Below are positions 2,225 through 59,871 of a DNA stretch of 64,000 bases, piece after piece. Every line of letters begins with the position of its first letter. The stretch's first letter is position 1. This stretch comes from Amphiscolops sp. MND2022 (lineage: Eukaryota), in the NCBI GenBank assembly GCA_964187785.1, contig OZ076409.1:66528001-66592000 (forward strand), read 5' to 3'. The notes under the pieces were generated by a model, which saw nothing but the letters and a program-made list of their open reading frames with translations, was not told where the DNA came from and searched no databases. Made by a program: the position numbers and the translations under genes.

Positions 2225-5200
2225 GTAATTAAAACGAGATTTTGATAGAAATGTATCATTTCAGTTGGAGTTGAAAAAATTTGTTTTCCGTTTTGAAAAT
2301 GTATTTTTGGATGAAGTTAGTCCTCCCTGAATGACTTTTGAAATCTGTTCAAATAAATTATGGGGTAATTTATGGCTTGCATTAGCCCTCACAGACCAAC
2401 ATATTCAATTGTGCCTGGAGGTTCGTGTTGCAGCGTATTGGCTCCTGAGAAACTTCACACTACCGAGTCCACTCTTCGACATACGTCAAATTCAGCATTT
2501 ACTTTTCTCATTTCGCCTTGAGGTTTTGATGCGCAAGGTCTCCTTTTGTTCTAGCTTGGAAAGAGATAGAATAAAGAAAATTGTGTTCTTAAAAATTTCG
2601 TTTTTCCATTTTACCAATTTATCGATCCGAGACAAACGGCTGTCAAGTTCCAAAAACTTGCATGAAGATTTGATCGTTTCAGATGCGGTCGTATTCACCA
2701 CATTTCTTTCCATATGATGTCCTGTATCATTTACTGTTTCAGGTCTTGACGAGAAAAATGCTGAATGTATGAGATTTTACCGTGAAGGATTGTATCATTC
2801 CACCATGAAGATTTTGACAGACGAGGCTGTACAGAATTGGAAAGCAGATATTCAGGTGATTATCTCTATATATAATTTGTTATCAAGCTGTTTTAGCTGT
2901 TTTAAATTGTCAGAAATGGCTGGGTTACATGATTAGTTGCACCCGAAGGTTTGTCAAGGTTAAGACATCCCTCCCTTGGGGATTATGGCACTTAGAGGAT
3001 TCTACCTTCGCTGGTTGATGGCGGGTCGATCTACAACATTTTAAAATTTTATAAATGTGTACTAAAGAGTCCATGGTGGAAATATATAGTAAAATAGCGA
3101 ATCTACAACGCATCCAAAGGGGATCCAACGCATCCATTCTTAACACTGTTTTTAAGCCAATTACGAGAACAGATGATCGCCCCTTCTGTTTTTTAGCACT
3201 CTTTGACTTTCTCGAAAATTTTTTGAAGTTTCCCCTTCTGTATTTTTGATGACAGAAGCGTTTTTCAAGCCTAAGGGATTTTTTTAATGTTATCCTATAA
3301 CTGTCCCCGGTCATATTATCTGACAGCTTATAAGTCATTGTTTTGGTTCAGTTGGGAGTCTTAGGTAGTCGCATAACCTCTTGATAAATTATAATCAAGT
3401 ATTTATTCAATTTGTCGAATAAATAGGCACCGGGCTTCATGATTACGTCAGAGCGAAACTTTTGTCTGGAGTGATAGAGATAATGATATGATGTTACCGT
3501 TTCTTCTCAAGAAACGCTTAATGGGGATCCATCCACAAGTCCTATGCATATTCGTTTAGACCAGCTTTGCAGTCGATTTCCATCTTGTCTTTCTAGTTTT
3601 TGTGGTGGTGTAATAGAGTAAGGGTCTCCGAATCTTCGATCTAAAATACTTTCTAGGTTTTTCCGACAGTTTTCCGTAGTAATTTCTCAATTTCGTTATT
3701 TTCGTCATATGGGAAAGGAAAATATTTAAATCGAACAGGTTTTCTTACAAAATTTGCCAAGCACCAACTTTATATTTAAATCTAAGGGTGTTACCCATAG
3801 AATTCAACTTACATAAATTTAGCTTCGTGCGATTTGTATTTGTGGAGATTTCCGGTCTTTTTTGTTGAACCCAGAATGACCCAGAAATAGTAAAAACTGC
3901 AATTTTTTTACGTTTTATTGCGATTTTTGTCAATTTTTCAATAGATGTCGTGGATTAGATTGCTGAAAATGCTAAACATGGCACTAATTCGTTGTCCACT
4001 AGGCTTCTCAGAAGAGATAGTTGCTGTTTCCTAAATGAAAATGTTTCAAATTGACACCGAAAATGACAAAAAGTCCAAAATGTTCCAATTTTTGAAGATT
4101 TTATCTATTTTATTTCATATTTTCGACAGCCTTCGTCAACTGGAACGTTGAAAAGAGTCAACATGGAAAGAATATGTTGTCCAGTGTGCTTAGAAAACAG
4201 AAAAATGCTTTCCGATTTTCACTATTTTTGTTCAATTTTTGTCGAAATATCGATAGTCTTCGTGGACTAGAATGGTAAAACGCCTAACGCATGGGCAAAC
4301 GGGTTTCCATTACCTTTCGTCATGAGATAAGTTCAATTTGAAAGAGGAAAATGCCTCAAATTGAACCTGAACTGTTAAAAGACTTGAAGTTTTTGCCGTT
4401 TTTGATGCATTTTCTGTACATCCGAAAGATTTTGCTCTAAGTTCTAGCAGAATCAACTCAACAACGGAAAAGCGAGCTTTGTATTCCATTTTTAGAAGAG
4501 AACGTTGCAGCGTTTTGCTTCAAAAACACTTCAGAATGACTCCGAAGCAGTCGAAAATTTTCAACATCTTCGTTTTTGTGCAACTTGTGTACTTTTTTGA
4601 ATAGTTTTGGAGTCAGAATGTTGGCAAACGTTCAAGAAAGACTGAATTCATACTCCAGTAGGCTTTTAGAGGAATATTTGCAAACTTCTGTTGAAAATAG
4701 CTCAAAATTGACCGCAAAAAGTCGAAATTTTCGTCGATTTCCAACATTTTTAGTGAATTTTTTGAGATTAGAAGATTTCGGTAAAATAAAGGCTTCGAAA
4801 AGCTTCAGATGATAAAGCTATGTCCGAAGCACGTTTTTCAAGAAAATTGCCTAATTTATTGTTGGAAGTTTCCTCAGAATGACCCAAATCTTGGAAAAAC
4901 TGAATTTTCAAGTTCTACAATTTTAGGCAGTTTTCTGTACAATTTTTGAGCAACTTCCTTGCATGAAATGGTTCAAGAACTCAAGAATGACTAATCCTGT
5001 TATCTCCAGTGGGCAATTTTGGAGATATAACTCCATTTTTTGTTGGAATTGGCTTAAAAACCCCAAAAATCCGTGAAACAACTAAAAAGCACGTCGTTTG
5101 ACAAATTCAAAGCACGAAAATTTTTGAAGAATAGAACTTCGAATGACCTGAGAGTTGAAACAAAAAGGTATTCAAAACGCAAATAGGGAAAAAGTGGGAT

Positions 5201-8200
5201 GAAGTTCATCGAGTTTACAACAAAGGTGTCAAAGTTTCGAACTTTCTTTATTTTCGACAACAGTCTCAATTTTGAACCTTTTTCGAAATCTTCACTGAGA
5301 TATACCATAGGCTCAAGATTGAACAATGTAGCTAGCGGTAGTGTTTCGAACCGATATCAGACAATTGATATGCCCAACTTTCGAAAACTTCTCTTGAAAA
5401 CGTAAATTTCGACCTCATTTATCCAATATTTAATCAAAAACCGCCAAGCAACATCACTAGTTATCATGTACACCTTTCAAAGGAAGATGTTTCGTGCTAC
5501 TTCGTGCAAAAATATAACAAACCCGGATCGCTGAACTTTCCTAAATTTACAAAAGACCTCTTTTCAAACTTTTACCATTTTCTCAGTGCCAAAAATTATC
5601 TCAGGAAGTACGCCTGAGACTAGGAAACCACTTTTTGCCCTACAGGAATCACAAAAAAATCCATTTTTTGATTTTTTTTCTGGTAAAATTCTCATGGCGA
5701 AACGAGTTTCAGCTCGCAAAAACTACCTGTCTCAAGCCGAAATCACCAATGGAAGCAAGCGGTACTCTTTGATCAGCTGAAAGTTTCGAAAAGACGCACA
5801 GAGTCGAAAAGCTGAAATGAGGTAAATTTTATTTGATCAAAAGTAACAAATAAGTCACCCTCAAGACTCGGGAAACCTATTTCCTTTACAGAAAACCTCC
5901 AAATTCAAAAATTGAGAGAAATGTTTTTCAAAAATTATTTTCAAAAAAGTTATTGAAAATTCTCTCTTCGAGACTCGCATAGTGCCAAAAAACGATAAGT
6001 GGCCAGCTATTGCGGAAATTATAGGTTAAGGGTTTCCTTTGGAATGGGCTAAAATGAATCAAAGCTTTTCTTTCTTCGAACTTCTTTGCGTTTTTATAGT
6101 GCTTTGGCTATTCTTGAGCCTCAATTCTATTTAGTTGTAGAACAGTTTGGGGCGGAAAATCTCGCTGCTCAGCGGGCGTCTTGTTTTTGAATATGCGGAT
6201 TTTGCAAGTCGTATGAGAAGGAGGGCGAGTTTGAGTAATAATTTGTAGGCGGTCATCCTGCTGCATCATCGTCTGTAGTTTTCTTTTGAAGCTATGTTAT
6301 TTTTAGGGCCATTGCCTTTTTAGTCGGCGCTTTTCCATCAAGGGAAAAATGCCCGACTATAGCAGTGACTGTTTTTAGTCGGCGCTTTTCTAGGGAAAAG
6401 TGCCCGACTCTTACAGTGGCTAGTTTTTTTCGTCAGACTACAATCTCACTCTGATTGGGCCACTTTTCTTACAATCGAAACTACTAAAACTACTAGCATA
6501 AGGCCAAGTCCGGTCAGCGGAAATTAGTGCAAAAGGGTCCCTCTTTCATTTTTAAATTTTTAACCGTAACCTACAAAACCGGGCGAGACTAAAAGGTTCT
6601 ATTTTTTTCGGCATTGTGCGACTTTTTTCGAAAATTTTTTAATGTCTCAAAGGAGTCCCCCTTTCGAGTTTTTTGATATTTTGCAACAGAATATATGTTA
6701 ATAAAGCCCGAAGGGTCCCCCTTTTACATTTTTCGGCACTATGCGACATTTTCTGAGAGAAAAAAAATCAAAAATTTCAAGTTTTTTTAAAAAAAGTCTT
6801 TTGCGCATTTTGAGCCTTATAGCGCCGACTTTAGACGTTCCCGTCTTGTTTTTTCTTCAGACTCAATCCTCACACTGATCGGTCCACTTGTCTTACATTT
6901 TCGGCTCTGTGAGAATTTTTTTTCGAAAAAAAATTTTTCCTTTCATTTTTTTGGAGTTTTCCGACAGAACGGATGTTGAAAAATCCCCCCTTTCAGTTTT
7001 TCGACATTGTGAGACTTTTTTTCATTAAAAAAATTTTCACCAAAAGTGCCCCTCCTTCAATTTTTTTGATTTGCCACAGAATGGATGAAAAATCTCAAAG
7101 TGTCCCCTCTGGTGCGCCAATTCGGTCCTTTTGCTGTTTTTGAGCCTTAGATATGGCGCCGACTTGGGCCGTTCCCGGCTTGTTTAGTATATCTGCGATA
7201 GCAGGAATATTATTGAAATCTGAAGATGTCTACTTTTTTCAGTAAAATTCTCACACGATACTGAATAATTCAGATATTTTGTTCGGCAGTGACTGTAAGC
7301 GTGACAATTAAATTTCTCAAGCTGCTGACGACAATTGAATTCTCGTGCGATGGAACGAGCGAGTGGTAATTATGCATTCGTACGCTGACGTCATTGAGAT
7401 GACGCGAGCGAATGTTCGTAATTGTGCTTTCGTTGCTCCCATTTATTGAGATGAATGAAGCGAATGAGTGTTAATTATTTTTTCGCAGAGAGCTTCGCCT
7501 GTTTTTGCACATGACGAAGTCAATGTGCATTGCAGTCCAGCTAAAGAAAGTTTTTTTTCCCACAATAGTCAACTTGATAAAGAGCGCCTTTTAGACAAAA
7601 GCCAAAACCCCTGAGAGATTCGAACCTGCAGCCTCCCGATTGCACGGCATAAGTGTTGACCACTGTGCCATAGGGACGTTATTGAACAAAGTTGAACTGT
7701 TGAATATATACGCATGCGATTAAAATAATATATATACGCATATTAAAATAATGTCTTCGTCATGTGTTGCGAAGCACCGCTTCGCCTCTGTGTCAAATAT
7801 ATATTTGCTTTAGTGAGAGATTTACTACTAATACTACTAAAAGACAGAGTTTATTCTAGTCAACAAAGAAATACTTGATGATATTCACATGTACAGATTT
7901 TTTAACAACAGATTTGAAGGCGGTATAAACTGGTACAGTGATTAATTGTGCGCTAAATAATGATTAAACAGGGGTGTATTGGTATTCCAGATATGATTTT
8001 ATTATTAATGAAAGATTGAAGCAGAAATAATAGTGTGCCCCGGAGGGCCTATTTTTGAACTCTGACCAACAGACTTGTTGAATGTATGGTTTGTTCTTGA
8101 ATTAACTTGAGGTGTTTTGTCTTTCAATATTTCTGCGGTTGAGGTGTTTTGTCTTTCAATATTTCCGCAATGTTATTTTTCTCAAGACCTATTTGTCGAG

Positions 8201-11200
8201 CCAATTTTGATCGGCTACCCCAAGTCTTGAGCTAGTTCAGTTAATTCTCGTAGCAGCGCGTTCAATTGAGATGAAGCGAACGAGTGGTAATTATTCGTAC
8301 GCCTAGAGCCTCACCTGCGTTTAACTAAGAATACGAAACGTCATGCGAATGCGAACTGGGTCCTGTCGAAGACACCTCAGTGCAACATTTCATACCAACC
8401 CTGATCGTTGGCAAAGGGGCTCAGTGAAGTCAGCTTGGCAGAGGGCCAATGCCTAGTTTCTTTTCACGTCACGAGCTTAATTACTATGGTTCTTCTAGCT
8501 TTGAAAGCTACAAATTTGGCTTCGTCTTTTGTTTAAGAGAGGGGTCTTTTTCCTGTTGTAGTCGATAGTTACATTTTGCCAATTGCTACGGAAAACTGTA
8601 TTGGATCGTCACTTCAACATTCCGGGTAGAAGATATAACGTCTGTTTGACCGCAAAATCGCTGATGAAAGGCTTCTGTATTTTATCTAAGCTGATGACAT
8701 TTTGACTGCTACAAAGAGGTTCTACTTGTCAGATCTTCTCAACGATGTCAATCTTAAAGGTCTCGCGTAGGAAAGAAATTGACGGTCGTATTACTTTTCA
8801 GGATCTCTCAATTTATAGAAGTGGTACGAGTATAGAATGCATACGTTCGACAGTCATATTACTGGATGATTTCCTCAGTTTATCGTGCTCACTTTGGAGG
8901 CTCTGTAATCTCTTCCTGTTGAAGGAGCTCCTGTTGAGGCTGAATTGATGTGAATTGAACATCTTTCGTTTTGTTGCACATGACGAAGTCAATGTGCATT
9001 GCAGTCCAGCTAAAGAAGTTTTTTTTCCACAATAGTCAACTTGATAAAGAGCGCCTTTTAGAGAAAAGCCAAAACCCCAGAGAGATTCGAACCTGCAGCC
9101 TCCCGATTGCACGGAATAAGCGTTGACCACTGTGCCATAGGGACGTTATTGAACAAAGTTGAACTGTTGAATATATACGCATGCGATTGAATATATATAT
9201 ATATATATATATGATGCAATAAGGGGTCGATGTGTTTAACGACAGCAGCCTCAAATCGACCCTGCTAAAGCAGATGTGGGACTTTTTCACGAGAAATAGG
9301 ACGTCAAACAATCCTTGTAGTTGGATCTATATTTGCTTATGTAAAAATTGTCGTGCCAATGAAATGTTTTAAATACGGGAGCGACCCTCCCTGTGGCAAT
9401 AGCTACGAAGCCTTTATAATAATAAAAATAATATAGGGCACAATTATTCATTGTACCAGTTTATATGAAGACCTTGATGTCTCAGACGTAAATATTGATT
9501 CTCAACTCAACACGTATAGCTGAGTAAACGGAAACTCTGGGATAACAATGAATGCATTTCGGTATGAAACCATCTTCAGCAAATACAAATCTGAAAATAT
9601 CCACAGGTTATTAAATAACAGTAAAATCTGGAAGACAATTATTGTAACACAGAGGCGAAGCGGTGCTTCGCAACACATGACGAAGATAGCTCTACGTTGT
9701 ATATATATTTAAATTTCCCGTATTTAAAACATTTCATTGGCACGACAATTTTTACATAAGCAAATATAGATCCAACTACAAGGATTGTTTGACGTCCTAT
9801 TTCTCGTGAAAAAGTCCCACATCTGCTTTAGCAGGGTCGATTTGAGGCTGCTGTCGTTAAACACATCGACCCCTTATTGCATCAGGATATTGGCTCTGTA
9901 CCCAGATCGATACCAGAAGTCATGGCGTTGTTCTTCACATCTGATGTCTGGAAGTTTGACTCTTGTTTTGCGACCGTTCCATTTAATTTCAGCAAACTCA
10001 GCGAAATCCATGTCATAATGTCCCAAGTAGATATTGTTATATAGAAGTAGTTCCTTGAGCACCTTCATATAAAGTGGAGGCAGCAGATTGCACAGAGTTA
10101 AAGCTTCTTCATAGTCTCGGTCTCCCACTAACCATGTTATAACTTTTCTATTAAAGCTTTCTATGAGTTTATGTTCACTACGATTTAGGTCCCAACATTC
10201 AGAGGCGAATAAGAGTTGGGCTGATTACAGCACAGTATAAGTGGATCTTGCTGGTTGTGGATAGCCTAAAACTGGTGTTTCGTTTCGTGAGGAACCAACA
10301 TTTCGTGGCTTTTGAGATCCGGTCGTTTGCGTGGTCAGACCAGTTAAGGTTATCTTTGATTATGAGACCCAAATCTTTGATTTCTTTTCTGTGTTTCATG
10401 ACATTTCCCCCTAGGGTTAAATCACTGAGATTGTCAGATTTTCTGAATGTAAAGGCAGTAATAGAAAAGTTTTTGTAATTGAAAAGAAGGCAATTCACGT
10501 TGGTCCAGCAGTGCATGTTGTAAAGGTCTTCTTGTAGTTCCGTAAGAGCTCTGTTTCTTGTTCTGCTTATCAGTTTTAGATCATCTGCAAAAAGCAGTGC
10601 TAGTGCAGAGAACACAACATTCGGTTATATATAGAAGAAACGAAGGGGGTCCGAGGACGGAGCCTTGAGGCACACCATATGTTACGACTCGTCTCTTAGA
10701 CTCAACATCTTCAATCCTCATGCTTTGGGTTCTCCCAGTTAAATAGTCTTGAATCAGGCGATAAAGGTTATCGTTCAAGTTTAGTTGCAAGAGTTTTCTC
10801 ATCAGGATTGAGTGCTTTATAGTATCAAAGGCTTTCGAGAAATCAAAAAGCAGGAGGCACTTGTAGTCTGATGCTGCACCAAAGTTTTCATAGACTCTGG
10901 ACAAACTGCGGATCAATTGGATTACTACAGAACTTCGAGGAAGGAAACCGTATTGGTTCTCGGAGACCAGTGGTAGAAGACAATTCAAAATAATTTCTGA
11001 GATGAATTTTCCCATTATCTTCGATACGATACTGAGGAGTGTGACAGGTCTGTAGTTCGTCACATCGTTGTTTCTTTCATCTTTATATATTGGGGGCACC
11101 AGGCCGTGTTTTCACGATTCTGGAAATTTCGCTAGTCTTATGATATTGTCAAAGCAGCTTCGAGGACTTAGAAAGACTTTAGGAAGTTTCTCTGAGAATT

Positions 11201-44200: not shown

Positions 44201-47200
44201 TAAAACTTGTTTTTTGATCCAATTTTTGAAATAAATTTACTTTTCAGCGTTCCGATTTTTGGTGTCAGAACATTTCGACCTATGCAATTTCGACCTATGC
44301 AATTTCAGTTGCTGACAATTTTAACCTATTGCTTTTTCAACCTTCAACGAATCTTGACTCATTGATCCTAATTCGCCTGAATTATTTCACGACGACAATA
44401 GTTATAAATGAACCAAACTGGTCACATCATTTGTATTTATTCATGAAGAATCATTTCATGAAGAATCATATTCATGAAGAATCATTTGTATTTATTCATT
44501 GTATTTATTCATTTGTATTATTCACGACATCTCCTGTAATACTGTTTTTCGTCGGCGCCTTTTCCCTTAAGGAAAAAAGCCCGACTCTTACAGTGAGTAG
44601 TTTTTTTTCAGTTGACAATCTCACTCTTTTACAATCTTTTGTTCCTTTGTTTTCTGAGAAACTTAGTTTTTCACAACTAATTTTCTGAGAAGCAGGAGGT
44701 CGTGGGTTCGATTCTCTCACTAAACCACAAGTTTTTTAGGCTCTTTTCTGTTTTCCCCCCCACCACCAATTTTTTTTTTGGAAAATTAGTGAAAATCGTA
44801 TAACAAAAAGACTTGAATACAAACCAGAGAGCTTCAAATTTACATTCATTCTTAATGTGACAGTTTAGGATTCAGATACAAATTTTGTTCACACTTTTTC
44901 AATATGTAGTCACGCATTTTTGATGAAGAAGTCATCAGCTTCCTGTTTTGAGTCATCAATAAACGTTTAATACGAACACAATTATAGTCAAAAAGCGTGA
45001 ACAATGTTTTGTTAAAGCAAAACACTATTCCAATAGACGTTAACTTCCCATTATGAAAGAAGAATTTACTTTTAATTAGGCTAGTCTAAAGTTTTTAAGG
45101 AAATTTACTTCCAAAAATTTTGGTGGTGGGGGGGAAAACAGAAAAGAGCCGTTTTTTATGCTTCCAAAAGTAGAGGCGAGACCAAAAGGTCCCCCCTTTG
45201 GGTTTTTTTCGGCACTATGCGACTTTTTTCGAAAATTATCGAATTCTATCAAAGGGTACCCCCTTGCATTTTTTTGAAGTTTTCGGTTTCTAAAAACGTT
45301 TCATGAGCCTAAATGGCCTCTTTTCTAAGTTTTTCGGCATTGTGCGACTTTTTTTAAAAAAAATACTTTTTGAAAAAAAATTTTCCAAATATTTCCAATA
45401 GTTGTTCCTTGAATATTTTTGTGCCTTAGATATGGCGCCGACTTGGGACGTTCCCGTCTTGTTGATCGTTTGAATGATGATTTAATCACTTCTAAAGCGT
45501 GTGCAATTTTTTGCTGAAGCTTATCCCAACAATTTTTACCGGCCTATATTCATTATTCCGAAAATGGTTTTTTTTGCTTTTGTCGATAACATGCAATGAT
45601 TTTTTGAATATAACATCTCTGGACGTTGATAGTGTGGACGAGGCGACGAAACATCTGGGAATCTCACCCTCAGTGTTTTCTGCTATGATCGGGGGGTCCT
45701 TCGCAGATCAGAAGATATGCAAGGATTGCCCGCACAGGTACTCTAGGGAGGAGCCGTTCACGACTGTGAGTGTGGACATAAGGAACAACCAGACTCTGAA
45801 GGACTCGTTCGAGCAGTATGTGAAGGGCGACTTGTTGGAAGGAGACAACGCCTATTTGTGTGAAAAGTGTGGCAAGAAGGTACGTATCACATCTGTTGCA
45901 TAGTCTGAGTCAAAAGATCAGATGATTCAAAAAAGTCGGTTTAGGGATAGTCAAGTGACCTGCAATCAGTGAATTGTACACGATACACGACAGGATACAC
46001 CATTTTTTGCTTTGTGATACACGAACCTATACGATACACGATTTTTTGAAATATACACGAAAAATACACGATAATTAAATTGAGCGCGTGAATCTGGCAA
46101 TTGAACGTAGGAATTAGCCATTCCAGCAAGCTCAGGAGCAGCCAAAAGGCTATTTTCTCAATGTAACATACGATGCGCAAATAGAAGAAACCGTATGTTA
46201 CAAAAAACTTGGAAATTTTGGTTCAAATTGCTGTTTATAATGAGCAAATTGAAATTCAAACTTCAAAGTTTTTTTTTATTTTTCAGTAAAAAATACACGA
46301 ATATACACGATTATACACGAAAATACGCGATTTTTTAAAATACACGAATACACGTAACGGTTTTTGCAAATACACGATACACGAAAAACTTGATACACGA
46401 CAATTCACTGCCTGCAATGCTCCCCATTGTGCACTTTTACATATATTCTTCCGAATTTACTATCGTTTACTATGAAATATGTTTATTTGCTCTCGCTTTC
46501 AATTTTGATTGTCACATCAAGTGAAATTCATGTAAATTGAGGAAATTTTATCTTTTGACCCTGATATTTCGGAAACGGTTGATCATTTTCGAAATCAAAA
46601 TACATCCATGGCTTCAGTAGATTTGTGGGCGGTAATCGAAAATAAAACTTGCCAAAACGTCTGTGGACGGTCAAAAATTATAAAAACGATAAAAATCCCA
46701 ATTTTGCTAAAAATCAGCTTTTTGTAACTTTTCCAATTTTTGTCTCAGAAATTTTTCTTTAAAAAATACTAATATAAACTAGATGAAATTCTAAGAAATT
46801 TTTACTTTTGATGTTTTTCAAAAATTTTAATCAATTTCTGGAAAATCAAGCCTAAAATCGCCTAGGGGATGATTTCTTAATCACAGTACTGTATAACTTG
46901 CTTCAATGTTTTCGAGTTGTTGGAAAAATTAATAACTGTGTACATATACATGTATACTGTGCGTAGGGAGCGGCTCACTATGCAGACGGTTCACTAAGCC
47001 GACCAAATAAATTCATTCTCAGCGCGTGATTAAATTCAATCTGAACGCGCGATTAAATTCATTCCCAAATTTCATTGGACAAATACATATTCCAAATAAC
47101 AGTACATGTAAACAAGATTGCGTCAATCAACAACGTAGTCAGCTATGGTCACATACCTCTAGTGCCCTAAATGCAGGAGCGAAGCGAAGCGAAGCGGAGC

Positions 47201-53200: not shown

Positions 53201-56200
53201 CCGCTTTTTGACTTTGAAGATGTGCAAAGACAAAAAATGTGCCAAAAAAAGCCTACATGCGAATTTTGATCGTTATAACCCAACTATATTACGTTATATC
53301 AGAAAATGTTTTCAGTATTAAGTTTGACAACTTGAAAAAAATTTTACCTCCGCGGGATCCAAAGGTTTGACACTTTGCCCACCAAATAGACTTGCCCAAC
53401 TAATCTGAGTAGCCACTGTACCAAGTGAATAGGACATATGTTCAGAATGAACTCATTTACTTGAATTATAGTCAAAACTAACTTCTGTCAAATTTTGATG
53501 AAAAAAATATCCCCACTGAAACTATTTTTTTTGTTTTTCCGGGAACAAAAAATAAAGATTAGTAAAAGCTTTGAATTAGACATTTTCTCATGCTGTGTCA
53601 AAGACTGAAATGGGCCTGTTAAGAGCTTGAGAGTATTCAAAAACACTATAGGTAGCCTGGAACTCCCTAAGTAGGAAGTCAAAACTGCTAATCGTTTGGT
53701 GCCAACTCTATTAAATGAACCATGTGGTATTTTCTTCGGCTTTTTGTCGTCAGTAATTGACCACTTCTTTTTTTCTATATACCGTATTTCTTCGAATATA
53801 AGTCGCCTCCGAATATAGGCGGCCCCCGATTAGAAGCCGTATAAAGCCTGAAAATTTTATCCTAAAACCATAGCTTTCCGTATTTCTTCCAATATAGGCC
53901 GCGAAATCATTACGAAAAACAACATACAAGCCGCGGCCTGTATCCGAAGAAATACGGTAAACAGCTATGAATATACAGTCAGTTTGTTTCCAAGTGATGT
54001 TTGTTTTGGTGTAGGTGTCAGCTGCTGAAGCGAGACGTGCCTCTGCTGATGGTGAATCTGGTGTTTGAAGAGAGCAACAACCAGATCAAGTACCAGACCT
54101 CGGAGTTCGCCAAACTCTACCAAGTTGTCTCTATCCTCGTCAGGTGCTGCGACCTCATGCCTTACTGCGAGCCTTCGTCTGGCAAAGAAGTTTGTACACA
54201 CAAAGCCATCTATTGAAAAAATCTTCATGTCTTTTGCAGTACCTTCTCGATCTTTTTGATTTTTGAAAGAGGCTAGTGAACTTCCTGTCGTCTCCGACAA
54301 TCACTCAAGCAAAATTCTGTTCATTTCTCGTATTGCGTTTCCAAATTATCGGAAGGCCCAACTTTGTCATAAATTTGCTCTTAGATGTCTCGAACTTTGC
54401 TTGGTAAGGCCTACTCCGGTGTTTTTTTTAAATCCTTTGGTTGCCGAATGGTTCACCGCGGTTCCAAATTTTTGGATCCATACATCAAAACCGTCAATCA
54501 TACCTGAAGAAATTGTAATCGAGAAATTGAGATGTACATCTCCATTTCTCGATTACAATTTCTTCAGGTATGATTGACGGTTTTGATGTATGGATCCAAA
54601 AATTTGGAACTGCGGTGAACCATTCGGCAACCATACGTTGAGTGCCTTTGCATTCATCAAATTAGATTAATTCGGTTCTCTGATCGTAGAACTTTACCTA
54701 ATATAAGTTGCGATTGATTTGCTTTGTCTTACTTTCAATTGCATTTTGGCACATGAGGAACGACCTTAAGAGTAAACCTATAGATGTCATAAATTTAAAT
54801 GGCATCAATTACATTTTTTAGTGATTTTTTTAAAAACATTGTTTGTAAATCGTCATGTGTGCGAAATGTCAGTAGATGTTTTATAATCTTCTTTTGGCAT
54901 ATTACTGTAGCATTTCTGTTTACGTTTGGTGTTTTAGATTCATCAAATGATGGCGAATCGGTACGGAGACCGAGACTTGGAGATACCGGTGCCAATCTCG
55001 GTTGGTCTCAAGGAGCGGTTGTTGGATGAGACAGTGTACGTCAAGAGAATCATCGAGGAGTGCCCCAACACCGAAGAAACCTGCTTCCTCATTTGTGTTA
55101 GTCAATAAACTGCATTTTATGAAACTGAAAATGAACAGGCTTATTTCATTGTTCAATTCGTTTTTTTCTCAGACTTGTATCGTCAACATTTTATTCCCTG
55201 GCTTAGTATCAGTTTTTTTCTTGTGGTACTTCAATTCTATTGATGGATGTTTTTTAGTCGGCGCTTTTCTTGAGAAAAGAGTCGACTATAGTCATGGTTT
55301 TTCGTCAGTGTTTTTTTTTCGATACACTTGAAGTGACCAAAATAGTTCTACCAAAAGTTCTACAAAATTTTAAGACGCAAAATTGTACCTTTTGGCCTAG
55401 GGAACTGGACTATAAGAGTTGTTCCTTTTTTAGCATAACATACAAAACTGGATGAGACTAAAGGGTACAACGTCATCCCTTTCAGTTTTTTTCGACATTG
55501 CGAGATTTTTTTCACCAAAAGGTTCTCCCTTCAATTTTTTTTATTTGCGACAGAATGTATGAAAAATCTCAAAGTGTCCCCCCTGGCGCGTCAACCGATC
55601 CAACTTTTGGGTTTCTCGGGTACTGTGGAAGAGAATACTTTGACACTTTGAAGTCCTTTTGCTATTTTTGAGCCTTAGATATGGCGCCGACTTGGGCCGT
55701 TCCCGGCTTGTTTTCTTATGAACTTAACATAAACATACCAGCCTGTCGATAGGCAAACATACCAATGATGTCCAATTATATTCTTTTTAATTCAAAATTC
55801 AAGTTTGAATTGAGAATTCTATAAGAAACATAAATTGAAGTTTAAAGTGGCTGAGAAATGAAATTTAAAAATCACTACACGTTTGATGGTAAAATTGCGG
55901 ACCAAAGTTTTTTGAAAACAAGCCGGGAACGGCCCAAGTCGGCGCCATGTCCAAGGCTCAAAAATAGCAAAAGGACTTCAAAATTTCCAAGTATTGGTGA
56001 ATTGGGACTACTTTTATGAAAAAAATTTAGAAAAAAAGTCTCACAATGCCAAAAAACTGACAGGGGGGACCCTTTGGGGTTTTTCAACATCCATTCTGTC
56101 GCAAAACATCAGAAAATTGAAGGGTGAAAAATTTTTTATTTTCGGAAAAAAAGTCTCACAATGCCGAAAAAAACTGAAAGGGAGGACCCTTTGGGATTTT

Positions 56201-59200
56201 TCAACATCCATTCTGTTGCAAATTTCCAGAAAAACTGAAAGGGAGGACCCTTTGGGATTTTTCAACATCCATTCTGTTGCAAAACTCCAAAAAAAATTGA
56301 AGGGGGGCCTTTCATGGTGAAAAAAGTTTTTTTTGAAAAAAGTCGCACAGTGCCGAAAAAATGGACCCTTTGGTCTCGTCCGGTATTGTATGTTACGCGG
56401 GAAACATTTTTGGTTCAGTTCCTTGGGCCAACAGGTACATTTTGGCGTCTTCTGGAACTTTTGGTAGAACTATTTTGGTCAGTTCAGGTGGTCTTAAAAA
56501 AACACTGACGAAAAGCCATGACTATAGTCGACTCTTTTCTAAAGAAAAGCGCCGACTAAAAACTGAAGTCGTTTTCTGCAGTAGTATGCGAGTGTATACC
56601 GGAACCGGTAACTGCCACTTAGGAAAGTGTGGCTCAATACTTACAACGACATTTCAGTTCGCAAATTTACAACTGCTGATTCACGTGTTGAACTATTTTC
56701 AAAAAGTAGATTTGTTGAATTTTAAATTGGGTCTTTCGTGCAAGACTTCATTCTATAAATAAGAAGTAAGATTACAGGCTTCAGTCAAATAGTTATAATA
56801 ATATAGTAATCAAGTAATTAAGCACGACTGACAGCACAAAAACACTTTACGAAATAAGAACAACTATGAAATAGGTTTAATGAATTAGCTTGTTTTGCAA
56901 GAAAAGGTCGAGGGATTTAGTGAAAGTGGTTTGAGGGTGGTCAAAATTCAGCACATGGTTTCTAATCGGCTCGTTTGCACTTTTAATAAACGATCGTGGA
57001 ACTATTCGTACTTGTGAACTTCTTGGCTATTGGCCTACAAAACCAAGAATTATAACTGCGAGTATGTATGGGCTTTGATTCCTTCTCTGTGGTGAATTTG
57101 TTGATTTTCTTATCTGTAGGCTTGGGTAAAACAATAGAAAGCCAAGAAAATTCCTGAAATTTTATCAATATTTAAATATTCATCACTGATCTCGACTACA
57201 TTTTTCATTGTAAATGCATGGGTCTTTCTTGCAAAAAGAAATCCACAATTTTGCCTTGGCTTTGATTGGCCCAAAACTAATTTCAAGACATTACCAATTG
57301 TATCTCCTGAAAAAGAAACGAAAGCATCGTGTTTGTTCATCAAAATGGAAGTTTTATTATTTAGTTGACCATAAAAAAGTATCTATTATGCATTCTTCGT
57401 TTCAAAAACCCGCCTCTGATGAAATGAAGTTCTGTGAATTCATTCTATTTAGAGGTTAAGTTTTGAATGTGAGTTTTGTTGCAGTACCTCTCTTGGGAGA
57501 ATGCGTCGTTCTCTGCGGCTGTGCTGACGGACATTCTGTGGCAAATCACCTTTGCATACGCAGCTGACCTCAAACCGTATTTGGATCTTCTTCTGGAAGT
57601 GCTAAAGATCCCTGACTCATGGCAGACGCATAGAATCATAAAGGCTTTAAAGGGCACGCCGAAAAAACAAGGTAAAAGTATGGCTCCGACGTTTCTTGAA
57701 TTGGCAAAATGCATTTTTGGGTTGAGTCAAAATATTTTGAACCCGTTGATATTATTAAGATTGACCTGTGGTTCCAAATTAGGTGCCAAATGTTACAAAA
57801 TTGTCCAAAATGATGTCCCATATGCCAATTCAGTAGTAAATGCAATCAATGAAAAATGAAATCAGGAAGTTTCTTCATTATTTGCAAACTTAGATATCAA
57901 GTGCCCAACAAAACTTTGGAATGTTTGTTTATTTGATTTTCAAAACTTGGATGATAGCAGAAACCAGAGCTAGTTTTGTTTTGGTCCAATTCTTTTTTTA
58001 CAAATAAAGGTTCAATTTATTTCTTACACTATTGTACTAATTGAAGTAGTTAAATCTGTTGAATGAACAAAATAGATTATCAGCCCTTAAAATTAATAGA
58101 ACATCATACTACTGTTTGGTTGAGTAATTTCCTAAAAGCATCCTTCTGCGCCAACAAACCGTCCATTCCTCAATTCCTTCGGCTAGCTGCCAGTTCTTTT
58201 GGCAGGCAATCAAAGAAAACAGTTACCTTGGTAGCGTGCAAAAGCGCATATATACCTTGCAGTGGAAAACAATTGTGTTCTAGACAGCAAAGATGGTTTG
58301 TTCGAAACAATTGAGAAAAGCAAGACGCATTTTGCAAGGCGAGCTTACCTGGCGATCAAGATGCTGACGAAGCTCTTCAGTCAGAGCCCACCGGCCCTCT
58401 CCATCCTGCGCCGGGATCCAGAGATCAAAAACCAGTGGCTGGTGGTCGTCGATTGGCTCAAACTCGAACTAAATCGCAACCAGGGATGAGCAATTGAATT
58501 TATCTCGACAGCGTTTCACGTAATCTAATGTCCCAATTTGCCAGGAGTGCCTTTATAACGAGCGGGGTCTGTCAGTTTTTGAAGGGAGACCTTTAGGCCA
58601 GATTTGATCGGTAAGGGAGTGGTCGAAGATTTGCAACCAAGTTGTACGGAACCGTTAAGGCAACCTGGGACACCACAGTAGGTGTACGGCAGCTTTATTG
58701 TTTATAGAGGTAAAAAAATGTAGGATCACATTGAATCTCGATGTTGATTGGAAAACCGATTGTAATACAGTCAGTTTTCAGTTATCCGGACCTTGTTCGA
58801 ATAGTTTTCACTTCTTCGATAGCGAGAGAAGCAAGAAATTATCGTAGTTTTTTTTGAAAAGCTGACCAAGATGCCATTGAGTGGCTGAAACTGTGCTTTT
58901 ACTGCCGATAAAATAAGTTTACTACCGATACAGGTTTTCTTTGCTTCATGGGCAAGGTTGGCCTGTTTTAAAACAATGTTTTAAAACACGCCAATAAAAA
59001 ACGTTTTAAAACATCAATAAAAAAACGTTTTGAAACATTTTATTAAACATTTTGAGATTTGATTAAGATAATTTATTGTTTTTTTATTTTCGATTGTTTT
59101 CACCCCCATATTTTTTGAATGTGATATATCGTTTATGTTCAAAAATTCGTTTATGTTCAATTCGTTCAAAGCTGAGATGCCAACTGGATAACGAAAAGAC

Positions 59201-59871
59201 AGCCAAACTCTGCTTTTTGTATCGCCAATTAAACAAGAAATAATTTTCTTTAATTCACATTTAATGTAATTAAAGATTAAGAAACAATAATATCCGTTTT
59301 TCTCAGTTTGAAGTGGAAAATTTTTAAAAAACAATAAAAAACAAAAAACATGTTTAATTGTTTAAAAAACTGTTTGTTTTATTTGATAAAAAACAAACAA
59401 ATGACCAACCCTGTTCACGGGCCGTTTTAAAATAGATTAATTAAAAGTAGCTGCGTTTTCATTGACGCACAACTGCGATGACCTTCGCCGAGTTTTCTTC
59501 GCTTTTCCTGTACCTTAAATTTTTGACAAAAATTCAATTGCCCATCCTTTGGTGATCAGTTTGCGATATCAAGCGGAGGTGGCAACCAGTACCAGAACTA
59601 CAACTACTCGTGGAACAATTCGGGGGCTGCCAATGGTGGCATAGGGGGAGTGTCAAATGAAACGGCCAATGGACACGCACTAGAGAGATCACCCAGTGCC
59701 AGACTCACCCTGCAGAAGGCGTCTGAGTTCATCCCCATTGCCAAGCCAGCGTCGCCCTCACCCGGAATTGCGGAGAAATCGTCGGCAACCACAGCTGCGT
59801 CTGTATCACCGGTGGGCTTAAACATTTCAGGGCTTTATTTAAGATATTGTTTTTATCCATGCGTTGTTTAA
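1771..59871 (+). CDS. USP9X: Ubiquitin carboxyl-terminal hydrolase USP9X/FAF-like, multi-exon gene (27 coding exons reconstructed; last exon may splice on at 59811)
   Basis: Exons are collinear with USP9X-family motifs: [48 protein letters not shown], Cys box [49 protein letters not shown], His box [51 protein letters not shown]. Phases close at all 26 junctions. Confidence 0.95.
2743..2855 (+). CDS. USP9X: USP9X exon 2
   Basis: [50 protein letters not shown]; not in the ORF track. Confidence 0.9.
6317..7184 (+). mobile_element. HINE/DINE-1-like (Helentron-associated) family A copy with a second family A copy nested at about 6372-6850
   Basis: 5' T-run+AGTCGGCGC with a nearby partial inverted copy (GCCCGACT); 3' GCGCCGACTT + hairpin (AGACG-TTCC-CGTCT or GCCG-TTCC-CGGC) + TGTT; sits in T-runs with no TSD. 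Confidence 0.75.
7502..7793 (+). mobile_element. HINE-like family C with an antisense tRNA-like cassette; near-identical partial copy at about 8970-9211 and inverted 3' end at 9647-9688
   Basis: Subterminal IRs CACATGACGAAG/CTTCGTCATGTG, 3' hairpin GCGAAGC-ACC-GCTTCGC; minus-strand TGGCACAGTGG...GGTTCGAATC. Confidence 0.6.
9212..9432 (+). mobile_element. 5'-truncated copy of the same LINE 3' end, with (ATA)-rich tail
   Basis: 9212-9380 is the reverse complement of 9716-9884; it follows a (TA)n run and ends TTTATAATAATAAAATAAT. Confidence 0.7.
9716..13600 (-). mobile_element. Decayed CR1/L2-group LINE (ORF1 remnant, APE endonuclease, RT), many frameshifts
   Basis: EN motifs RADR..KHGG, GDFNLP, CLDLIF, SNH; RT motifs [40 protein letters not shown]; internal ~108-bp tandem duplication at about 11130-11345; 5' boundary approximate. 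Confidence 0.9.
13794..14393 (-). CDS. Intact 199-aa ORF, SGNH/GDSL-hydrolase-like, probably retroelement-borne
   Basis: [10 protein letters not shown] (block I-like), GGLS (II), [10 protein letters not shown] (III), ILHP (V), Lys-rich tail; lies upstream of and co-oriented with the LINE. Confidence 0.45.
   Translation of the reverse strand: MVFIIGASSLRNTIVALPYHERRQFNGRTFSDGGLSFNSQNPDKKKVLHNLLNRGSLSRKKNIVIWHDLINNTVTPYRRKNSPSPVIPPLPIPNLLSILKSLKDRIAAVVYIQRFEDPQILQNLRSTKIITIDAFKQLISHRNRKNKILICNLRILHPKIINEARLLIALWSSRQNLKQFGPEKFKNKKKKKPSQKKEL
15481..15645 (+). CDS. USP9X: USP9X exon 3
   Basis: [24 protein letters not shown]...[11 protein letters not shown]...YQ|GTAATC. Confidence 0.9.
15890..17316 (+). 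mobile_element. HINE family A-type copy containing a tRNA-like cassette (16011-16075) and a nested piggyBac-like MITE (about 16320-16870)
   Basis: 3' end GGCGCCGACTTGGGACGTTCCCGTCTTGTT; MITE ends TAACCATAAGTTGACCA / TGGCCAAGTTAAGGTTAA; 5' boundary approximate. Confidence 0.6.
17644..17703 (+). CDS. USP9X: USP9X exon 4 (60 nt)
   Basis: [31 protein letters not shown]; fills the gap before GWLVDL. Confidence 0.8.
18220..18790 (+). mobile_element. piggyBac-like MITE, same family as 16320-16870 and 29780-30224
   Basis: Starts TTAA-CCCTAAGTGGACCA; internal sequence is homologous to the other two copies; right end unclear. Confidence 0.6.
19125..19240 (+). CDS. USP9X: USP9X exon 5
   Basis: [28 protein letters not shown]...LLAALL|GTGAGT. 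Confidence 0.9.
19965..20340 (+). CDS. USP9X: USP9X exon 6
   Basis: [15 protein letters not shown]...[18 protein letters not shown]...DKLA|GTAAGA. Confidence 0.9.
20681..21254 (-). mobile_element. HINE family A copy
   Basis: AACAAGCCGGGACCGGCCAAGTCGGCGCC...GCGCCGACTAAAAA. Confidence 0.75.
21469..22505 (-). mobile_element. HINE family A copy with an oppositely oriented family A fragment inside (about 22030-22481)
   Basis: AACAAG..GAGTCGGCGCC start, GCGTCGACTAAAAA end; internal AGCGCCGACTTTAAACGTTCCCGTCTTGTT. Confidence 0.6.
26330..27052 (+). mobile_element. 3' fragment of a non-LTR retrotransposon ORF2 (decayed)
   Basis: [40 protein letters not shown] and C-terminal [14 protein letters not shown] knuckle; stop codon and frameshift present. 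Confidence 0.75.
27737..28203 (+). mobile_element. HINE family A copy
   Basis: TAGTCGGCGCC...AGCGCCGACTTGAGACGTTCCCGTCTTGTT. Confidence 0.75.
28305..28476. mobile_element. Tc1/mariner(pogo)-type MITE
   Basis: TA-CAGTGGATCCCGGATATA ... TATATCCAGGAGCCACTG-TA. Confidence 0.75.
28564..29354 (+). CDS. USP9X: USP9X exon 7
   Basis: [28 protein letters not shown]...VKEGS|GTTAGA. Confidence 0.92.
29780..30224. mobile_element. piggyBac-like MITE nested in a degenerate HINE family A copy (about 29445-30283)
   Basis: Perfect 15-bp TIR CCCTAAATGGACCAG / CTGGTCCATTTAGGG, flanked by TTAG and TTAA. Confidence 0.8.
30660..31895 (+). CDS. USP9X: USP9X exon 8 (includes Ubl-like segment; ends at GG donor)
   Basis: [20 protein letters not shown]...LWNTI; ends ATAAG|GGATGAG. 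Confidence 0.88.
32010..32734 (+). mobile_element. HINE family A copy (degenerate)
   Basis: Family internal GGGTCCCC/CGGCACT-type motifs; 3' GACTTGGGCCGTTCCCCTTGCTTGTT. Confidence 0.65.
33174..33393 (+). CDS. USP9X: USP9X exon 9
   Basis: CCAG|(R)[24 protein letters not shown]...SRLFQ|GTGAGT. Confidence 0.88.
33788..34367. mobile_element. piggyBac-like MITE nested in the hAT element
   Basis: TTCA-CCCCAATTGACCT ... AGGTTCATTGGGG-TTAA. Confidence 0.65.
34914..36168 (+). mobile_element. HINE family A copy interrupting the hAT transposase
   Basis: TTTTTAGTCGGCGC...GGCGCCGACTTTGGCCGTTCTCGGCTTGTT; transposase ORF pieces abut both ends. Confidence 0.8.
35205..35910 (+). mobile_element. HINE family B with internal 172-bp tandem repeats (about 3 units)
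   Basis: subTIR AGGAGTCGG/CCGACTCCT, 3' hairpin CCGCATATGCGG; GGCATCAAAATCGTATGG recurs at 35383 and 35555. Confidence 0.8.
37105..37282. mobile_element. hAT-type MITE with AGCGAT subterminal repeats
   Basis: 8-bp TSD GCTATAAC; imperfect TIR CAAGAGATGTGA / TCACACCTCTG. Confidence 0.75.
38019..38110 (+). CDS. USP9X: USP9X exon 10
   Basis: [42 protein letters not shown]. Confidence 0.88.
38329..38515 (+). CDS. USP9X: USP9X exon 11
   Basis: [24 protein letters not shown]...FEGLE|GTCTGG. Confidence 0.8.
38818..39416 (+). CDS. USP9X: USP9X exon 12
   Basis: [14 protein letters not shown]...[14 protein letters not shown]...DSFF|GTCAGT. Confidence 0.85.
39473..40117 (+). mobile_element. HINE family B, second copy with 172-bp tandem repeats
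   Basis: Near-identical to 35205-35910; unit marker at 39637, 39809, 39981. Confidence 0.8.
40567..40822 (+). CDS. USP9X: USP9X exon 13
   Basis: [15 protein letters not shown]...SSLIQ|GTTAAT. Confidence 0.85.
40971..41451. mobile_element. MITE with ~21-bp TIR
   Basis: ATATTGGACCATGTGTTCAAT / ATTGAACATATGGTCCAATAT. Confidence 0.7.
42661..43257 (+). CDS. USP9X: USP9X exon 14, catalytic Cys box (3' end ambiguous: 43257 with GC donor or 43215 with GT donor)
   Basis: [16 protein letters not shown]...[23 protein letters not shown]. Confidence 0.88.
43702..43889 (+). CDS. USP9X: USP9X exon 15 (ends at GG donor)
   Basis: [24 protein letters not shown]...[14 protein letters not shown]; ends GACAG|GGATGTT. 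Confidence 0.88.
44545..45463 (+). mobile_element. HINE family A copy with a nested MITE
   Basis: GTCGGCGCC...GGCGCCGACTTGGGACGTTCCCGTCTTGTT; B-box-like GGTTCGATTC near 44705. Confidence 0.75.
44739..45150. mobile_element. Merlin-like (GG...CC) MITE
   Basis: ~31-bp TIR GGCTCTTTTCTGTTTTCCCCCCCACCACCAA; 8-bp TSD GTTTTTTA; superfamily inferred from termini only. Confidence 0.75.
45633..45879 (+). CDS. USP9X: USP9X exon 16
   Basis: GATAG|(S)VDEATKHLG...[17 protein letters not shown]...[15 protein letters not shown]. Confidence 0.9.
45967..46410. mobile_element. hAT-type MITE with ATACACG subterminal repeats
   Basis: TIR CAGTGAATTGT / ACAATTCACTG; 8-bp TSD CCTGCAAT. Confidence 0.85.
46966..47361. 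mobile_element. Mutator-like MITE
   Basis: 9-bp TSD CTGTGCGTA; G.../...C termini; IR GACGGTTCACTAAGCCGACCAAA / TTTGGTCGGCTTAGTGAACCGTC. Confidence 0.8.
47582..47759 (+). CDS. USP9X: USP9X exon 17
   Basis: [35 protein letters not shown]...AKIE|GTTTTA. Confidence 0.92.
48353..48576 (+). CDS. USP9X: USP9X exon 18
   Basis: CTTAG|GEIIRDD...[20 protein letters not shown]. Confidence 0.88.
48966..49065. repeat. ~100-bp imperfect palindrome
   Basis: CTATTGCAAAAG...TAGTGAAATGAAT / ATTCATTTCACTA...CTTTTACAATAG. Confidence 0.8.
49128..49674 (-). mobile_element. HINE family A copy
   Basis: AACAAGCAGGGAACGGCCAAAATCGGCGCT...GCGCCGACTAAAA. Confidence 0.75.
50015..50237 (+). CDS. USP9X: USP9X exon 19, catalytic His/Asp box
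   Basis: [19 protein letters not shown]...[12 protein letters not shown]...NQWFGG...|GTTAGT; frame not in the ORF track. Confidence 0.92.
50762..51232 (+). CDS. USP9X: USP9X exon 20
   Basis: TTTAG|(S)[16 protein letters not shown]...[10 protein letters not shown]...SSCQ|GTACGG. Confidence 0.9.
51599..51985 (+). CDS. USP9X: USP9X exon 21
   Basis: ATCAG|...[14 protein letters not shown]...[12 protein letters not shown]...IQQ|GTTAGT. Confidence 0.88.
52794..52959 (+). CDS. USP9X: USP9X exon 22
   Basis: TGCAG|...LKLSDYIV...[10 protein letters not shown]...PDQ|GTGCTA. Confidence 0.88.
53782..53957. mobile_element. Tc1/mariner-type MITE
   Basis: TA-CCGTATTTCTTCG ... CGAAGAAATACGG-TA. Confidence 0.8.
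54015..54189 (+). CDS. USP9X: USP9X exon 23
   Basis: [15 protein letters not shown]...[22 protein letters not shown]...GKE|GTTTGT. Confidence 0.88.
54438..54633. repeat. 196-bp loopless palindrome
   Basis: Centred on GATGT|ACATC (54531-40); the arms differ at about 2 positions. Confidence 0.95.
54938..55096 (+). CDS. USP9X: USP9X exon 24
   Basis: [17 protein letters not shown]...[28 protein letters not shown]; frame not in the ORF track. Confidence 0.88.
55250..55712 (+). mobile_element. HINE family A copy
   Basis: TTTTTAGTCGGCGC...GGCGCCGACTTGGGCCGTTCCCGGCTTGTT. Confidence 0.8.
55917..56561 (-). mobile_element. HINE family A copy, inverted relative to 55250-55712
   Basis: AACAAGCCGGGAACGGCCCAAGTCGGCGCC...GCGCCGACTAAAA. 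Confidence 0.8.
57485..57671 (+). CDS. USP9X: USP9X exon 25
   Basis: [15 protein letters not shown]...LKPYLDLLL...[14 protein letters not shown]...|GTAAAA. Confidence 0.92.
58284..58483 (+). CDS. USP9X: USP9X exon 26 (ends at GG donor)
   Basis: [20 protein letters not shown]...[11 protein letters not shown]; ends CCAG|GGATGAG, and read-through hits TGA after one codon. Confidence 0.88.
58953..59413. mobile_element. hAT-type MITE with AAAAC-rich subterminal repeats
   Basis: CAAGGTTGG / CCAACCCTG termini; 8-bp TSD TTCATGGG/TTCACGGG. Confidence 0.75.
59560..59811 (+). CDS. USP9X: USP9X exon 27 (ends at CCG|GTGGGC donor, or runs to stop at 59871)
   Basis: [25 protein letters not shown]...[25 protein letters not shown]. 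Confidence 0.85.

What the first reader, a model, noticed from the sequence alone, without database searches (positions are those of the whole stretch)
2225..59559. Intron ends carry intron-specific reverse complements of their own 5' splice site: candidate structure-guided intron definition system
Seen: within about 5-45 nt upstream of the 3' AG there is often a reverse complement of that intron's own donor region. 58482-58501 AGGGATGAGCAATTGAATTT vs 59530-59549 AAATTCAATTGCCCATCCTT (18 WC + 1 GU of 20). 43253-68 CTCAGGCAGGCATTAG vs 43681-96 CTAATGCCTGGCTGAG (15/16). 43887-97 CAGGGATGTTA vs 45611-21 TAACATCTCTG (11/11, 1 GU). 31894-914 AGGGATGA...AAAAATTTTGA vs 33137-55 TCAATAATTTTTCATCCCT. 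GT introns show it too: CAAGGTA(A) 57668 vs (T)TACCTTG at 58223 and 58253; CAGTTAA 39419 vs TTAACTG 40554; AAGAAGGTACGTATCACATCT 45874 vs AGATGGAAAATGTAATTTTTT 47556; AGTGTTTAAA 51989 vs TTTGAACACT 52750. Others are weaker and GU-rich. The paired sequences differ between introns, often extend into the upstream exon, and their mismatches are often G-U on the sense strand, which fits selection on pre-mRNA structure better than one transposon TIR. Inference: pairing brings the ends of transposon-bloated introns together and compensates for poor donors and pyrimidine tracts. Known analogues from memory are end-paired nonconventional euglenid introns and AC/GT-repeat bridging in fish introns; I do not know of this donor-covering form in an animal.
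Basis: partly seen in the sequence, partly recalled or inferred. Interest (0 to 1): 0.92.

Follow-up and report, generated by a model that had tools for sequence, protein, structure and literature searches.

The report
Transposon-born introns with paired GG ends
In this animal, introns with unusual GG/GA/GC starts carry complementary ends because they are old DNA-transposon insertions turned into introns, which explains where such odd splice sites can come from, while ordinary GT introns show no such pairing.

Summary
The window holds a USP9X/FAF gene with 26 introns. End pairing is real but confined to non-GT introns. Over 112 introns (USP9X plus dyneins), non-GT introns pair with their own acceptor region (n=13, p=2e-5; dyneins alone p=9e-4). 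The paired GG/GA arms are hAT transposon terminal inverted repeats (CAGGGATG…CATCCCTG, like maize Ac/Ds). Genome-wide these pairs are about 10-fold over control and flanked by 8-bp target duplications, and 23 of 76 fetched copies form in-frame GG-AG introns. The element supplies the exon's last CAG and the GG donor; the acceptor is usually the host NAG just behind the duplicated target (11-nt spacer in 13 of 29). This is a new variant of the introner mechanism. Whether the helix is kept for splicing is open. The arms outlast the target duplication, and these introns lack pyrimidine tracts. Against this, the planned replication was underpowered, G-U bias is weak, donor changes are uncompensated, and no RNA data were found.

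The parts
1768..59830 (+). USP9X/FAF-like deubiquitinase gene, 27 coding exons, 26 introns (22 GT, 3 GG, 1 GC); start and last exon not resolved
   Evidence: spliced ORF 2780 aa, 0 stops, about 42% identity to USP9X
43887..43897 (+). 5' hAT TIR of GG intron 43890-45632; 43887-43889 (CAG) are exonic, donor GG at 43890
   Evidence: (homology caller: GG 258 vs best GT 241)
45611..45621 (+). 3' TIR of intron 43890-45632 (10 Watson-Crick pairs + 1 G-U)
   Evidence: pairing probability 0.93-1.0 over exon -3..intron +7 in the whole-intron fold
43879..43886 (+). exonic copy of the decayed 8-bp target-site duplication
   Evidence: 5 of 8 identical to 45622-45629
45622..45632 (+). intronic TSD copy (45622-45629) plus co-opted acceptor TAG (45630-45632): the 11-nt spacer
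58481..58501 (+). 5' arm of GG intron 58484-59559 (CAG|GGATG type)
   Evidence: (rank 1 of 51); single copy in the genome
59530..59559 (+). 3' arm (59530-59550) and 9-nt spacer to the acceptor of intron 58484-59559; TSD no longer recognisable (1 of 8)
31893..31914 (+). 5' arm of GG intron 31896-33173
   Evidence: rank 2 of 51; the automatic caller also needed a non-GT donor but placed it 12 nt upstream
33137..33173 (+). 3' arm (33137-33156; its last 11 bases match the Ac/Ds right end as printed in PMC3260210) and 17-nt spacer to the acceptor
43253..43268 (+). 5' arm of GC intron 43258-43701; second donor family AG|GCA(C/G)GCAT
   Evidence: (rank 1 of 51)
43681..43701 (+). 3' arm (43681-43696) and acceptor of GC intron 43258-43701
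45967..46410 (+). younger hAT-type element nested in GT intron 45880-47581: 11-bp TIRs, exact 8-bp TSD (45959-45966 and 46411-46418), weak hAT dimerisation-domain remnant; not at a splice site
   Evidence: Pfam PF05699 E=0.01, below the cut-off

Best explanation
The paired introns are old, mostly single-copy insertions of non-autonomous hAT (Ac-like) DNA transposons into exons, i.e. introners. Insertion duplicates 8 bp: exon-TSD-[CAG GGATG … CATCC CTG]-TSD-NAG-exon. The spliceosome cuts after the element's third base (CAG|GG, a GG donor with a built-in exonic AG) and uses the host's NAG behind the second TSD as acceptor. The element's CAG replaces the host's NAG and the mRNA keeps its length; spacers of 8, 14 or 17 would add or drop codons, and other lengths need later indels. 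The reverse complement 5-20 nt before the AG is the right-hand TIR. Donors then drift (GG to GA or GC in two dynein introns). A second family of 8-bp-TSD elements starting with C gives GC donors by duplicating an AG|G site (7 of 8 TSD in one of four cases). Shown: pairing limited to non-GT introns, TIR motif, 8-bp TSD, 11-nt mode, in-frame interruption of coding sequence. Inferred: use of these junctions in RNA, recognition by the ordinary U2 spliceosome through exonic AG and G+1, and any role of the helix.
For: Motif pairs 296-356 nt apart: 41/34 vs control 4/3; 216-276 nt: 37/32 vs 3/4, with 17 of 50 places being one repeat family. Flank identity peaks only at 8 bp: 0.49 vs 0.27, with 11 of 40 at 6/8 or better vs 0.39 expected; replicated 0.51 vs 0.27 in 20 more. 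Target preference nTnnnnAn (hAT-typical from recall). 23 of 76 fetched elements splice to stop-free, codon-biased frames. Spacer 11 in 13 of 29 intron-forming copies; their TSD identity is 0.44 vs 0.27, p<1e-4. Ac/Ds TIR C/TAGGGATGAAA with 8-bp TSD (PMC3260210, passages). hAT transposase domains are abundant (150 of 150 scored over cut-off). All 7 homology-called GG/GA/GCATG introns follow AG vs 61 of 99 GT introns. Late gain: the unnamed relative P0001 aligns continuously across junctions 43258, 43890 and 45880 and ends at shared intron positions. 0 of 5 paired introns vs 22 of 62 GT introns share a position among dynein paralogues (too few to be significant).
Against: No RNA confirms any junction. 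16 of 29 intron-forming copies have spacers other than 11, and in three window introns the TSD is unrecognisable. No autonomous hAT with CAGGGATG ends was examined, and the tested window intron end is single-copy, so no family links it to a mobile element. The GC family's geometry fits only 1 of 4 cases. Coding status of pattern-found copies rests on stop-free frames and codon bias over 240 nt.
Confidence: 0.82

Rival explanations
1. Compatible with the origin above: the TIR helix has been kept by selection because it helps define non-GT introns. It would hold the 3' end next to a weak GG donor and stand in for the missing pyrimidine tract until a helicase opens it for U1/U5/U6.
For: Intron-specific inner pairs (TIR positions 9-10, not part of the search pattern) are retained at 0.76 vs 0.31 mismatched, while TSD identity is 0.44 vs 0.27 (n=29). 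In spacer-11 introns, TSD 41 of 72 vs inner pairs 16 of 18 (p=0.013). In 7 homology-called introns the 3' arm matches the consensus at 48 of 56 bases vs TSD 21 of 56. Among copies with TIR of 10 bp or more, intron-forming ones have older TSDs (median 3, n=11) than others (median 7, n=13), p=0.026. The helix forms in whole-intron folds of up to 1.7 kb. Pyrimidine tracts are weak.
Against: The pre-specified replication gave p=0.65 (n=2 vs 7), with spacer-11 TSD 15 of 32 vs inner pairs 5 of 8; pooled p=0.008 by rank test but 0.087 by Fisher. G-U vs A-C mismatches: 12 vs 5 in pattern-found copies, confounded by the T-rich sense strand, and 6 vs 5 in homology-called introns. Two donor changes (GA, GC) are not compensated in the 3' arm. 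Indels and synonymous change also erode TSD identity. The helix covers the U1 site, which usually inhibits splicing (general knowledge).
Confidence: 0.38
2. The 3' arm is conserved as a sequence element (branch site about 20 nt before the AG, or a protein site), not for pairing.
For: A T.AC branch-like motif lies in the 3' arm in 12 of 29 intron-forming copies vs 4 of 29 predicted from their own 5' arms (p=0.038).
Against: Non-intron copies carry it about as often (13 of 42, p=0.45). GT introns show no YTRAY excess (37 of 99 vs 33 +/- 5). Retained inner pairs differ between introns.
Confidence: 0.15
3. A general structure-guided intron-definition system acting on GT introns too.
For: One quoted GT intron (57672) falls in the top 5%.
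Against: 99 GT introns show no excess (p=0.15); 2 of 99 are in the top 5%, fewer than the 5 expected.
Confidence: 0.03
4. The GG/GA donors are mis-called junctions or assembly errors.
For: No RNA check was possible; the automatic caller made four doubtful non-GT or low-score calls in one dynein gene, and window junctions 43258 and 58484 were set by hand.
Against: The caller ignored pairing, yet recovered the same motif in four dynein introns, with no GT alternative or margins of 12-69 score units. One of them was found again by the genome pattern search.
Confidence: 0.04

Closest known systems
Introner / introner-like elements (Micromonas, Aureococcus, Polarella glacialis, Symbiodinium; hAT-classified families in Gozashti et al. 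2025)
   Same: TIR DNA transposons that make introns on insertion, with one splice site carried and one co-opted. P. glacialis class 13 uses element bases 2-3 as donor and a TSD-plus-flank acceptor; class 12 builds GC donors from the TSD's last G and the element's first C (10.1101/2020.10.14.339549, parts 1-2 read). hAT introners with 8-bp TSDs are listed for plants, fungi and the tunicate Styela clava (PMC12130899 supplement 8, 32 of 63 'hAT' places seen).
   Different: GG donor inside an Ac-like TIR with three exon bases replaced; copies too diverged for similarity-based family detection. No GG class is named in the rows seen, but 'NC' rows could hide some.
Maize Ac/Ds (hAT)
   Same: TIR start C/TAGGGATG and 8-bp TSD (PMC3260210, passages).
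   Different: Ds splicing from maize alleles is recalled, not read here; as recalled, those are imprecise mutant alleles rather than fixed constitutive introns.
GA/GG-donor introns of the copepod Eurytemora affinis
   Same: About 12% non-canonical donors, obligate exonic AG, lineage-specific positions, unchanged U1 5' end (PMC5714493, whole text). In its File S1, 31 of 36 donors follow CAG or TAG (counted by eye), as hAT ends would give.
   Different: No origin was proposed, its donors are mostly GAA, and acceptor sequences are not in the supplement, so pairing could not be checked. Zero introner families are listed for it in PMC12130899 supplement 7.
Fritillaria borealis, Amoebophrya and euglenid non-canonical introns
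   Same: Non-canonical introns with terminal inverted repeats and TSD-like repeats; end pairing proposed or tested (PMC11282704 parts 1-3; PMC7789003 passages; PMC12501133 abstract and outline only).
   Different: There the repeats lie inside the intron or at both borders, and borders are often non-AG. Here the acceptor is AG, G+1 is kept, the helix starts in the upstream exon, ends about 11 nt before the AG, and such introns are a minority beside ordinary GT introns.

Membership tests
hAT superfamily element | 8-bp target-site duplication | tested here: met
   peak at 8 bp only, in two independent sets
hAT superfamily element | short TIR beginning (C/T)AG(G), Ac-like | tested here: met
   Ac/Ds TIR in PMC3260210
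hAT superfamily element | cognate autonomous element with hAT transposase and the same ends | tested here: inconclusive
   PF05699 abundant in the genome; ends of those elements not examined
Introner | insertion into exon leaves the reading frame intact after splicing | tested here: met
   23 of 76 pattern-found copies and 7 homology-called introns
Introner | families of near-identical introns at unrelated sites | tested here: not met
   tested end of intron 58484 is single-copy; only one pair sharing a 19-bp TIR, one intron-forming and one not (L109, L116). Fits old introners, not an active family.
Introner | lineage-specific intron position | tested here: inconclusive
   absent from relative P0001 for 43258 and 43890; 0 of 5 shared among paralogues; 31896 and 58484 not resolved (one search gave no close relative)
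Introner | removal by the spliceosome shown in RNA | not testable with these tools
   no RNA run listed
Euglenid-type nonconventional intron | no GT/AG borders; CAG/CTG pair inside the intron | tested here: not met
   all end in AG and start with G; the CAG is exonic. AG was required by my caller, so other acceptors would be missed.
Structure-dependent splicing (euglenid-like function) | pairing required, shown by compensatory change or mutation | tested here: inconclusive
   arms outlast TSDs; replication weak and donor changes uncompensated

The most novel reading that the evidence does not exclude
An animal has domesticated hAT terminal inverted repeats into a splicing signal: GG/GA-donor introns without pyrimidine tracts are defined by a selected helix between the exon-intron border and a site 11 nt before the AG. 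The same route would explain GA/GG donors in other animals such as Eurytemora.
Probability: 0.33. Interest if true: 0.88.

Novelty: new variant of a known kind. Interest (0 to 1): 0.62.

Why it matters
It gives a concrete, checkable origin for GG/GA donors with an obligate exonic AG, a pattern left unexplained in Eurytemora (PMC5714493). It shows that transposon-made introns too old for similarity searches can be recognised by geometry (TIR, 8-bp TSD, 11-nt spacer). Gene models in this genome will fail at such introns (10 of 112 sampled; 6 of 86 in dyneins). If the helix is selected, it would be a structure-defined intron class in an animal, testable with one compensatory minigene.

Tried and rejected
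No RNA holder listed; this is no evidence either way. Altered U1: 12 of 23 U1 matches were read, and none has a 5' end complementary to CAG|GGATG; 11 were not read. Active family for intron 58484: DNA search 1 hit, 20-nt pattern 2 hits. The 71-hit CAGGGATG repeat is internal to a larger repeat, not a terminus. Four 113-114-nt copies lie inside larger fold-backs and were left out of TSD contrasts. GC-family pattern: 3/4 vs 0/2 hits; of 5 fetched, one is a GC intron in a UBE2N-like gene (name recalled) and no TSD length emerged. Donor-conversion pattern CAGGHATG: 22/16 vs 4/3 (11 GA, 14 GC, 13 GT rows, several from repeats); flanks not available, so inconclusive. Second homolog search gave no close relative. 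Dropped before the 112-intron count: four low-margin calls in dynein C1a and one window containing N; one GA call in C1b was reset to GT after a rerun with full-length references. Elements fetched: 40 of 46, 16 of 18, 20 of 50 (17 of one repeat family and 13 others not fetched). Literature searches turned up no report of GG donors inside hAT TIRs. Subscription papers (Huff 2016, not held; Henriet 2019; the maize Ds-splicing papers), two unsearched supplements of PMC12130899, 31 unseen rows of its supplement 8 and bioRxiv supplements may bear on novelty. The lineage of the organism was not determined. No earlier scan notes exist for this genome.

Full report
Gene and observation. The window encodes a USP9X/FAF homologue on the + strand. 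Junctions set from reading frame and homology give 26 introns and a 2780-aa frame without stops: 22 GT, three GG (31896, 43890, 58484) and one GC (43258). Whole-intron folds close on the terminal helix, with probabilities near 1 at most arm positions.

Independent sample. I located dynein heavy-chain genes, fetched part of them and called junctions from 150 homologues, requiring AG and allowing any GN donor, without regard to pairing. After dropping four low-margin calls and one window with N, 112 introns remained (99 GT, 7 GC, 5 GG, 1 GA). GT: cognate -12.2 vs -11.9 kcal/mol, p=0.15. Non-GT: -19.5 vs -12.9, p=2e-5; dyneins alone p=9e-4. Three GC introns with ordinary-looking donors have no arm; one of them shares its position with a GT intron in a paralogue. 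So the feature belongs to non-GT introns, 10 of 112 in this sample.

What the arms are. All GG/GA cases and one GC case read NAG|G(G/A/C)ATG at the donor and carry a CATCCCTG-like motif before the acceptor. This is the start of the maize Ac/Ds TIR (PMC3260210, passages). In the genome, CAGGGATG…CATCYCTG pairs exceed the reversed control about tenfold at 296-356 nt and 216-276 nt (a third of those places are one repeat family). In 40 of 46 fetched copies, flank identity peaks at exactly 8 bp (0.49 vs 0.27; 11 of 40 at 6/8 or better vs 0.39 expected). Twenty further copies repeat this (0.51 vs 0.27). hAT transposase domains are plentiful, and a young hAT-type element with an exact 8-bp TSD sits inside window intron 45880. 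Of 76 fetched copies, 23 can be spliced at CAG|GG to a nearby AG to give a stop-free, codon-biased frame. One flank is an EGF repeat by Pfam; others resemble transportin, clathrin heavy chain and ankyrin proteins (names recalled, not from a call).

Mechanism of intron birth. Among 29 intron-forming copies the distance from TIR end to intron end is 11 in 13, then 14 (5) and 13 (4). Eleven is the 8-bp TSD plus NAG. The element gives the exon its last three bases and the GG donor; splicing removes the rest of the element, the second TSD and the host's NAG, so the mRNA keeps its length. Window intron 43890 shows this with a 5-of-8 TSD. This explains why the pairing reaches into the exon, why every such donor follows AG (7 of 7 vs 61 of 99 GT), why inner bases differ between introns (many families), and why pyrimidine tracts are poor (the last 11 nt were exon). 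The GC family AG|GCA(C/G)GCAT fits duplication of an AG|G site by an element starting with C in one dynein intron (TSD 7 of 8, read) but not clearly in 43258. Late gain is supported by relative P0001, an apparently unspliced frame running across 43258, 43890 and 45880, and weakly by paralogue positions (0 of 5 vs 22 of 62). Use of these junctions in RNA is inferred.

Is the helix kept by selection? For: inner TIR pairs not used in the search are retained at 0.76 vs 0.31 mismatched, against TSD 0.44 vs 0.27. In spacer-11 introns the counts are 16 of 18 pairs vs 41 of 72 TSD bases (p=0.013). Intron-forming copies with long perfect TIRs have older TSDs than other copies (p=0.026). Against: the pre-specified replication had 2 vs 7 usable copies (p=0.65; pooled 0.008 by rank test, 0.087 by Fisher). 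G-U exceeds A-C only 12 to 5, or 6 to 5 in the unbiased set. The window's strand gap equals background, and two donor changes are uncompensated. A branch-site role for the 3' arm is neither supported over non-intron copies nor excluded. None of the 12 U1 copies read is matched to GG donors. I put a selected helix at a little over one in three.

Comparison. Introners are known, including hAT families with 8-bp TSDs and a small one in a tunicate (PMC12130899: passages and part of supplements 7-8; 10.1101/2022.06.06.494994: passages). P. glacialis classes already mix carried and co-opted sites (10.1101/2020.10.14.339549, parts 1-2 of 4). Non-canonical TIR introns occur in Fritillaria, Amoebophrya and euglenids (PMC11282704, parts 1-3 of 5; PMC7789003 and PMC13326754, passages; PMC12501133, abstract and outline). 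What I did not find in nine searches is a GG donor supplied by an Ac-like TIR with three exon bases replaced. In Eurytemora, 31 of 36 GA/GG donors follow CAG or TAG, a lead for the same origin.

Verdict. Observation partly confirmed; interpretation partly supported. A new variant of the introner mechanism in an animal, with an open but testable possibility that the inherited helix has become a splicing signal.

Noticed in passing
L008 (G000:C13:49602042-49602206); also L009, L010, L012, L013: U1 snRNA copies with altered 5' ends. The L008 end would pair with CAG|GTTT-type donors, and 35 of 99 GT introns here have T at +3.
   Followed up: no
window 36064-36789, - strand: Broken hAT-like transposase pieces (zf-BED E=0.003, DUF659 E=0.046, both below cut-off) inside intron 33394-38018.
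   Followed up: partly
window 9874-14393 and 60875-63603: Non-LTR retrotransposon reverse-transcriptase/endonuclease-like frames in the 12.6-kb second intron and downstream of the gene (names recalled).
   Followed up: no
window 9212-9884, 54438-54633, 55251-56562: Long near-perfect inverted repeats (169, 98 and 67 nt arms) from nested MITE or fold-back elements.
   Followed up: no
window 58473-58478 and 59563-59568: In the fold of intron 58484 the upstream exon also pairs 6 bp with the downstream exon, leaving the acceptor AG in an 8-nt bulge; may be chance.
   Followed up: no
L090, L093, L106, L125, L126, L127: Six intron-forming copies start CAG|GGATGTTGA, and five of them end in T(A/G)ACATC, hinting at one asymmetric family that forms introns in one orientation.
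   Followed up: partly
L007 (G000:C12:22481414-22484574): A U1 snRNA gene lies inside an intron of a dynein heavy-chain gene.
   Followed up: no
L120 (G000:C4:52010271-52010865, - strand): GC intron with a 14-bp terminal helix in a UBE2N-like gene (name recalled), same donor family as window intron 43258 and the same 10-nt distance to the AG.
   Followed up: partly
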